A stretch of DNA of 64,000 bases from Zootoca vivipara (lineage: Eukaryota): contig NC_083277.1 of NCBI RefSeq assembly GCF_963506605.1, forward strand, positions 54,126,001 through 54,190,000. The letters run 5' to 3'. The translations under genes and the position numbers were made by a program. Position 1 is the first letter of the stretch, and each line of letters starts with the position of its first letter. Under the pieces are notes generated by a model. It was not told where the DNA came from. It worked only from the letters and a program-made list of their open reading frames with translations, and searched no databases. Positions 54,550 through 54,857 of the stretch are shown one piece after another.

Positions 54550-54568
54550 TGGTAGCAGGCGGATGGTT
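54550..54568 (+). other. Primer-binding site complementary to 3' end of initiator tRNA-Met
   Basis: TGGTAGCAG-GC-GGATGGTT 2 nt after the LTR, versus TGGTAGCAGAGGATGGTT expected for vertebrate tRNAiMet. Confidence 0.9.
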
Positions 54569-54857
54569 GCTGGTAGCAGACTGGTGGTTGCAGATGGCTA
54601 TTGATGGTTGGATAATTGGATGTTTCTGATCCATTTCCATCTGATGCTGCACATCGGAGTTGAGCTGTGAGCTGAAGCTGTTTTTCAAGCTGCTGTTTGA
54701 TTTACAGAAAGGTATGTTGCTGGCTGCCAGGAAGACAGCAGAGACGCTTTTCCAGTTTGCCTGTTAATTGTGCTGAGTGGGGAGAGAAGTTGCTGAGAGA
54801 GTCAAGAGTATTTGGGGTGCATGAAGGGAAGTGTCTTGCTGTTAACTAAACACAGGC

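What the first reader, a model, noticed from the sequence alone, without database searches (positions are those of the whole stretch)
54550..54634. Copia leader is an array of tRNAiMet-complementary boxes (tandem / multipartite PBS)
Seen: instead of one PBS there are two 21-nt-spaced copies, TGGTAGCAG-gc-GGATGGTT (54550) and TGGTAGCAGA-ct-GGTGGTT (54571). These are followed by GCAGATGG (54590), GATGGTT (54603) and GGATGTTTCTGATCCAT (54618-54634). Established: the reverse complement of the vertebrate tRNAiMet 3' part reads TGGTAGCAGAGGATGGTTTCGATCCATC, so the last box matches almost the whole T-arm. Yeast Ty1 uses extra boxes beyond the PBS, and 3' tRNA fragments silence mammalian LTR elements through the PBS. 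Inference: a multipartite priming or dimerisation platform, or a decoy array of imperfect sites buffering tRNA-fragment silencing. I know of no description of this architecture in a vertebrate Copia.
Basis: partly seen in the sequence, partly recalled or inferred. Interest (0 to 1): 0.7.

Follow-up and report, generated by a model that had tools for sequence, protein, structure and literature searches.

The report
Stacked, tRNA-rewritten Copia primer sites
A young jumping gene in a vertebrate genome carries three stacked matches to the tail of initiator methionine tRNA behind its left repeat; the first is likely the working primer site and the others are likely duplicates, and relatives show that tRNA sequence is copied into this region up to tRNA position 41 and no further.

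Summary
The boxes are real and beyond chance. They follow the 5' LTR of an intact Copia (74 copies, identical LTRs). Box 1 is an 18-nt PBS with one bulge; all 74 LTR ends lie 2 nt before it, none before box 2. Box 2 is a 21-nt duplicate of box 1. It is absent from the sister family (0 of 11), varies among copies, and is missing in one public contig. Co-folding gives no gain from the extra boxes, so a cooperative platform or decoy array is not supported, though a Ty1-like role for the distal element stays open. The stronger result is in relatives. Unlike Ty1, these Copias inherit tRNA copies in the PBS (3/74; 21/67 in an RT-less family). Some copies read past A58 to nt 41, one folds back there, and 0 of 73 matches go further. 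Hemivirus-type families in the same genome begin at nt 40. The stack is best read as a record of strand-transfer errors; priming by the 3' tRNA half is the bold reading.

The parts
54151..54155 (+). 5-bp target-site duplication, left copy (right copy 59289-59293)
   Evidence: both read TTTTG
54156..54547 (+). 5' LTR, 392 bp, TG...CA
   Evidence: identical to the 3' LTR
54548..54549 (+). 2-nt spacer between LTR and PBS
   Evidence: same junction in 74 of 74 copies found
54550..54570 (+). Unit 1: box 1 (54550-54568), 18-nt PBS for tRNAiMet nt 76-59 with one G-U pair and a 1-nt bulge, plus 2 nt; inferred working primer site
   Evidence: 69 of 74 copies as here, 3 perfect, 2 intermediate
54571..54591 (+). 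Unit 2: box 2, duplicate of unit 1 (18/21 identical here; box 2 equal to the bulged box 1 in 2 copies); five states among 74 copies
   Evidence: absent in family B and in contig X15
54585..54597 (+). Overlapping partial look-alike of the PBS start (9 of the first 10 nt); not significant alone
   Evidence: seen in the sequence; middle region 188/1000 shuffles
54605..54643 (+).
   Evidence: 28/36, 1/1000; family B 28-29/36, 1-9/1000
54626..54656 (+). Block conserved between families A and B (28 of 32 columns)
   Evidence: against 70% identity at 4-fold sites, binomial p 0.019 (block chosen after the fact)
54858..58862 (+). Single intact gag-pol ORF, 1334 aa from ATG, Copia order (gag, zinc knuckle, protease-region barrel, integrase, RT)
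58883..58895 (+). Polypurine tract
58897..59288 (+). 3' LTR

Best explanation
The leader holds three stacked complements of the tRNAiMet 3' part: box 1, likely the only productive primer site; box 2, a likely recent and dispensable 21-nt duplicate of box 1; and a worn 36-nt site (tRNA nt 76-41) that is likely an older, longer primer site pushed downstream. Shown: the anatomy, the LTR end 2 nt before box 1 in all copies found, the absence of box 2 in the sister family, and tRNA-matching rewrites of the PBS region in scattered copies. Inferred: reverse transcriptase copies the primer tRNA into plus-strand strong-stop DNA (mostly 18 nt, to A58; in family E sometimes through A58 to nt 41), and strand transfer or template switching out of register duplicates, collapses or overwrites the site. 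New units arise at the LTR side and older ones decay downstream. The distal site may be kept by selection as a Ty1-like helper for tRNA annealing; that step is untested.
For: 74 of 74 LTR-PBS junctions are at 5' LTRs and precede box 1. Box 1 gets the tRNA 3' end in 26 of 30 folding contexts. Unit 2 starts exactly at PBS nt 1 and equals the bulged unit 1 in 2 copies. Family B (83% protein identity, 70% at 4-fold sites, LTR pairs 99.4-100% where found) has no second unit in 11 of 11 copies, yet has intact ORFs. One public contig lacks 22 nt across the two units, leaving a single site that reads as the perfect 18-nt complement. All 5 variants of box 1 move towards the tRNA; box 2 moves both ways, and 72 of 74 copies have lost its pair to tRNA C66. 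Family E has its own 11-nt PBS duplication in 43 of 67 leaders, a perfect 18-mer in 21 of 67 (spread over both clades of the 13 copies treed), T/C/G/A opposite A58, and tRNA-exact sequence to nt 41 in 3 of 67 (counts made by hand). L190 is an integrated LTR + 36-nt tRNA copy + fold-back. In E and 7 of 9 older relics with a perfect PBS the complement continues past nt 59 in one piece (at most 27 of 500 shuffles in 6 of those relics; co-fold gain), the likely ancestral state of the distal site.
Against: The order of box-2 states is not resolved: the family A tree is mostly open and copies recombine, so identical units could come from conversion. Both units carry the non-tRNA bulge, so unit 2 was copied from the element, not from tRNA; its exact origin is inferred. 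In 4 of 30 folding contexts U5 sequesters box 1 and the tRNA prefers box 2 plus the middle boxes, so box 2 could act as a docking site. Box 2 has been kept in 74 of 74 copies in this genome and in contigs under two other organism labels. The single-unit contig is one contig and does not show that such a copy replicates. No family A copy shows rewriting beyond nt 59 (0 of 74). Family C lacks the distal element.
Confidence: 0.6

Rival explanations
1. Ty1-like multipartite priming platform: box 1 binds the acceptor end while the distal site (and box 2 as a first landing site) opens and holds the T arm, variable loop and anticodon stem, aiding packaging, annealing or dimerisation.
For: Distal site specific for tRNAiMet and kept in families A and B; 28/32 identity against 70% neutral, p 0.019. 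The leader folds less well than all 200 shuffles, so it is open. Forcing box 1 + distal pairing costs only 2.7 kcal/mol, within reach of a Gag chaperone. Ty1 boxes 0 and 1 lie 6-50 nt behind the PBS and are needed for priming (PMC5454406, passages).
Against: No co-fold gain (140/150 shuffles as good); distal site paired with the tRNA by at most 0.3 nt in 30 of 30 contexts; no D-arm box in family A (407/500); box 2 missing in B; distal site missing in C. The conserved A/B block runs on into sequence that is not tRNA-complementary, and the gag-proximal leader is also well conserved.
Confidence: 0.27
2. Decoy array or escape from tRNA-fragment silencing: imperfect sites soak up or evade 3' tRNA fragments.
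For: An imperfect box 1 persists in 71 of 74 copies although tRNA copying repairs it; the two largest 3'-primed families are mostly imperfect (A 71/74, E 46/67) while the near-perfect family B gave 11 copies. The same pattern is argued for mouse ERVs (PMC7472051, passages).
Against: This argues for escape by mismatch at box 1, not for decoys. Box 2 binds the 18-nt fragment more weakly than box 1 (-24.3 against -28.6 kcal/mol). Extra sites on the same RNA would add targets (inference). No small-RNA data were examined.
Confidence: 0.1
3. Chance matches in a G/T-rich, C-poor leader.
For: Leader is 34% G, 34% T, 14% C; the short middle boxes are not significant; GATGGTT occurs 11 times on the + strand of the window.
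Against: Composition-keeping shuffles are beaten by box 2 (5/1000) and the distal site (0-1/1000); control tRNAs score far lower.
Confidence: 0.03

Closest known systems
Yeast Ty1 PBS + boxes 0, 1, 2.1 (PMC5454406, passages; PMC5371799, passages)
   Same: Ty1/copia element, tRNAiMet 3' end, extra T-arm complement within about 100 nt behind the PBS
   Different: Ty1 has a 10-nt PBS and 6-7-nt boxes shown by mutation; here an 18-nt PBS, a whole duplicate of it and a collinear 36-nt site; no D-arm box in this family; Ty1 is stated not to inherit tRNA sequence (PMC7472051), these Copias do
Retroviral 18-nt PBS and the primer over-extension sequence of lenti- and spumaviruses (PMC13191261 section 10; PMC8599865 passages)
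   Same: PBS restored from the tRNA copy that stops at A58; complement behind the PBS that can accept over-extended plus strands (family E)
   Different: Over-extension there reaches tRNA nt 55/54; here it reaches nt 41, and in the window's family the extension is displaced about 55 nt downstream
Imperfect PBS of mouse ETn, MusD, IAP (PMC7472051, passages)
   Same: Commonest PBS is mismatched; scattered copies revert to perfect
   Different: Retroviridae with single PBS; the passages read describe no stacked sites
Hemivirus-type half-tRNA priming: copia, Ty5, 1731, Osser (PMC1181622, passages: synthesis starts from nt 40)
   Same: Related families in this genome have this PBS, starting at nt 40
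   Different: The window's family pairs with the other side of that cut, nt 76-41
Mtanga clade of squamate Copia (PMC11889832, passages)
   Same: Only Copia clade reported in Lepidosauria; Copia abundant in Squamata
   Different: Clade and host not tested here; the paper's main text has no occurrence of 'PBS'

Membership tests
Ty1/copia LTR retrotransposon | gag - protease - integrase - RT order | tested here: met
   Retrotran_gag_2, zf-CCHC, Pol_BBD, rve, RVT_2 in this order; no RNase H family was listed
Ty1/copia LTR retrotransposon | TG...CA LTRs, 5-bp TSD, PBS, PPT | tested here: met
Mtanga clade | RT/RNase H groups with Mtanga references | not tested
   no reference sequence on hand; tree holds only this genome's families
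Ty1-type multipartite PBS | T-arm complement downstream of the PBS | tested here: met
Ty1-type multipartite PBS | D-arm complement | tested here: not met
   407 of 500 shuffles as good in family A
Ty1-type multipartite PBS | Boxes conserved across related families | tested here: inconclusive
   distal site in A and B, contiguous in E, absent in C; box 2 only in A
Ty1-type multipartite PBS | Boxes strengthen or are needed for the initiation complex | tested here: inconclusive
   no gain in nearest-neighbour co-folding without chaperone or modified bases; function not testable here
Ty1-type multipartite PBS | PBS not inherited from the tRNA | tested here: not met
   3 of 74 (A) and 21 of 67 (E) carry the perfect 18-mer on mixed backgrounds
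Retroviral-type PBS with over-extension sequence | 18-nt PBS restored from the tRNA | tested here: met
Retroviral-type PBS with over-extension sequence | Further tRNA complement directly behind the PBS | tested here: not met
   family A: box 2 follows instead; met in family E
Hemivirus-type half-tRNA priming | LTR followed by the complement of tRNA nt 40 and below | tested here: not met
   not in the window's family; seen in 9 loci of related families and family D
tRNA-fragment decoy | Extra sites lower silencing | not testable with these tools
   only binding energies

The most novel reading that the evidence does not exclude
These vertebrate Copias descend from half-tRNA-primed elements and prime with the other product of the same cut: the 36-nt 3' half of tRNAiMet (nt 41-76). 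The complement ends at nt 41 in the window's distal site, family B, family E and most relics (nt 40 in two). Tool-free sequence reading plus searches show tRNA copies in E stopping at nt 41: 0 of 73 matches carry the next tRNA base, and a fold-back cDNA turns exactly there (L190). Hemivirus-type neighbours start at nt 40 (7 of 9 loci flush with the LTR). The stacked leader would then be an LTR-first record of primer copies, and the genome would hold fossil maps of tRNA modifications (stops next to nt 58, 26 and 9). Against: the boundary may be inherited from one ancestor, and only plus strands with a paired 3' end can be integrated.
Probability: 0.25. Interest if true: 0.78.

Novelty: new variant of a known kind. 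Interest (0 to 1): 0.52.

Why it matters
A stacked PBS alone is a modest oddity. The comparison shows more: vertebrate Ty1/copia elements inherit primer-tRNA sequence like retroviruses, unlike what is stated for Ty1, and sometimes copy it past A58 to nt 41. That makes three questions testable in a young, high-copy family: whether mismatched PBSs are kept against repair (tRNA-fragment pressure outside mammals), how Copia lineages switch between half-tRNA and 3'-end priming, and whether a 3' tRNA half can be a natural primer.

Tried and rejected
Priming from box 2: no LTR ends 21 nt later (0 of 74). First copy survey showed no leader variation in 29 of 30 loci read, but was selected by similarity and was set aside. 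The gap range could not catch one- or three-unit copies; plus closed that gap. Co-folding as support: negative. D-arm box and sense tRNA look-alike in family A: not significant (407/500, 183/1000). Distal site scored against tRNA nt 58-37 alone over a 100-nt region: weak (50/500 in A, 65/500 in B); it is strong only when nt 66-59 are included. Ordering box-2 states by a tree: unresolved; the protein tree is a quick tree with long branches and a midpoint root. RNA: raw runs X22, X23, X24 gave 0, 4 and 20 reads in about 6% of each run, with no start or stop sites; X18 covered only the LTR and X19 nothing. Of 19 places fetched from the perfect-PBS search, 3 were further E copies, 1 the fold-back, 1 family C, 9 older relics with an LTR-like end, 1 a tRNA-like copy and 4 showed no element features and were dropped. 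Literature: ten searches found no tandem or stacked PBS in a Copia and no PBS study of squamate Copia; one search was too loose to count. Wilhelm 1994, Friant 1996 and 1998, Lauermann 1994 and Ke 1999 were not held and are known only through citing papers. Earlier-findings look-ups gave nothing on this element. No protein homolog, structure or complex job was run; no supplements were read.

Full report
Setting. The finding lies directly behind the 5' LTR of an intact Ty1/copia element: identical 392-bp LTRs at 54156-54547 and 58897-59288, a 5-bp TSD, a PPT, and one 1334-aa ORF with gag, zinc knuckle, protease-region, integrase and RT families in Copia order. It sits in the last intron of TUSC2. 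The host is a vertebrate; a squamate is inferred from the abundance of Copia (PMC11889832, passages) and was not tested. I call this family A. The genome holds 74 LTR-PBS junctions of it; 19 full copies compared differ from the window by 23-51 substitutions in 5.1 kb, with 0-2 differences between their LTRs.

Observation. tRNAiMet was read from this genome. Box 1 (54550-54568) pairs with tRNA nt 76-59 with one G-U pair and one bulge (-29.7 kcal/mol; 1/1000 shuffles), box 2 gives -25.4 (5/1000), 54618-54644 gives -28.4 (2/1000), and the middle stretch is not significant (188/1000); five other tRNA genes bind the significant boxes less well. Aligned as a whole, 54605-54643 is one collinear complement of tRNA nt 76-41: 28 of 36 matches, 1/1000 shuffles, control tRNAs scoring -3 to 3 against 13, and 1 unrelated tile among 1620 reaching the same score. 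So the leader is better described as two 18-nt sites and one worn 36-nt site than as five boxes.

Within the family. All 74 copies have two units, and all junctions are at 5' LTRs, so no integrated copy has an LTR ending 21 nt later. Box 1 is as in the window in 69 copies, a perfect 18-nt tRNA complement in 3, and half-way to it in 2. Box 2 has five states (62, 8, 2, 1, 1); in 2 copies it equals the bulged box 1. The changes cost about 4 kcal/mol against the tRNA 3' 18-mer (-28.6 to -24.0...-24.9), nearly all from one site hit by two different substitutions. Three of 51 substitutions between the window and L117 fall in these 19 nt (Poisson p 0.001, region chosen after the fact). This fits relaxed selection, selection against a competing site, or a local error hot spot. 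A tree does not order the states. In public data, contigs under two other organism labels keep both units, 20 reads of one RNA run include both units in likely sense orientation, and one contig (X15) lacks 22 nt across the units, leaving one perfect site.

Related families. B (83% protein identity, 70% at 4-fold sites) has a perfect 18-mer in 9 of 11 copies and no second unit in 11 of 11, but keeps the distal site (28-29/36; 1-9/1000) inside a block 28/32 identical to A. C relics (3 seen) lack it. E, an RT-less family, has the nt 76-41 complement in one piece. Among 67 E leaders, 43 carry an independent 11-nt duplication, 21 a perfect 18-mer, 3 tRNA-exact sequence to nt 41, and the base opposite A58 is T, C, G or A (hand counts). 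The rest of E differs by a median 2.6% among 13 copies, and perfect 18-mers occur in both clades. None of 73 matches carries a G after the nt-41 position (3 of these may be unrelated). L190 is an LTR, a 36-nt tRNA copy and a fold-back. Of nine older relics, six beat shuffles for a contiguous extension (at most 27/500) and three do not (72, 111, 474/500). The other families sampled have a PBS starting at tRNA nt 40, flush with the LTR in 7 of 9 loci. A quick tree groups A/B, D and E and places them among such families (long branches, midpoint root).

Folding. The leader alone is less structured than all 200 shuffles. With box 1 kept and the rest shuffled, 140 of 150 shuffles bind the tRNA as well or better; E-short and five relics do gain (0-10/150), B is mixed (4 and 34/150). 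Over 30 contexts the tRNA end goes to box 1 in 26 and to box 2 in 4, and the distal site pairs by at most 0.3 nt. Forcing box 1 + distal costs 2.7 kcal/mol. These models ignore Gag and modified bases.

Mechanism. In retroviruses the plus strand copies 18 nt of the primer, stops at m1A58 and transfers to the PBS; over-extended strands are accepted by a short complement behind the PBS (PMC13191261, section 10 read; PMC8599865, passages). Ty1 and Ty3 are said to inherit their own PBS (PMC7472051, passages). The perfect 18-mers on mixed backgrounds, the four bases opposite A58 and L190 indicate that these Copias behave in the retroviral way and sometimes read on to nt 41 (inferred from genomic copies). 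Transfer or template switching out of register then gives duplication (A, E), collapse (X15, short E forms) and overwriting. Box 2 is best read as such a duplicate; priming there would give an LTR end without CA (inference), and none is seen. The distal site is best read as a displaced long PBS, possibly kept as a Ty1-like helper (PMC5454406, passages).

Novelty. Multipartite tRNAiMet sites, over-extension sequences and mismatched PBSs are known. Ten searches of the held library (listings seen, passages read for the papers cited) found no stacked PBS in a Copia and no PBS study of squamate Copia; several key older papers were not held. The boldest reading rests on one coincidence: hemiviruses prime from nt 40 (PMC1181622, passages), and the complement here ends at nt 41, the first base of the leftover 3' half. 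Common descent, and the need for a paired 3' end, could give the same boundary, so I put it at 0.25.

Verdict. Observation confirmed; interpretation partly supported; new variant of a known kind; interest 0.52.

Noticed in passing
L190 (G000:C11:16667300-16668020): Integrated aberrant cDNA of family E: LTR part, parent-type PBS, jump back into the LTR, exact 36-nt tRNAiMet copy, then a fold-back inverted LTR (134 of the first 150 ungapped positions match).
   Followed up: partly
L095-L106, L191, L194, L195: Family E: about 70 copies, one 871-aa frame with gag, protease region and a worn integrase region but no RT hit; it must be mobilised in trans; helper unknown.
   Followed up: partly
L170-L172; L145, L150, L157, L169: Half-tRNA-type PBSs run exactly 14 nt (to the base before nt 26) or 30 nt (to the base before nt 9) from nt 40. 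These fit stops at methylated G26 and G9 (modifications recalled, not from a call).
   Followed up: partly
L067-L077 leader, +28 to +54 from the PBS: Family B carries a sense look-alike of tRNAiMet nt 2-27 (23/26, 0/1000 shuffles), followed by a stretch predicted to pair with the tRNA 5' part: a possible strand-exchange switch or captured tRNA piece. Weaker look-alikes seen by eye in L157, L159, L163.
   Followed up: partly
L081-L094, L101: Family D (41% gag identity) has a half-tRNA-type PBS that varies among copies at two positions, and a downstream match to the tRNA 3' end (22/500).
   Followed up: partly
window 53483-53608 and 63075-63137: The element sits in sense orientation in the last intron of TUSC2; effect on splicing not examined.
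   Followed up: partly
window 54490-54560: U5 is predicted to pair with box 1; family B's U5 has a similar stretch by eye.
   Followed up: partly
window 48119-48418 and 59869-60168: Two 94% identical copies of a LINE-like repeat with an open frame at 59865-60239; resemblance to RTE/Bov-B is recalled.
   Followed up: no
runs X1 and X17: The family, with both units, occurs nearly unchanged under two further organism labels (6 differences in 1145 nt; 1 in 246 nt).
   Followed up: no
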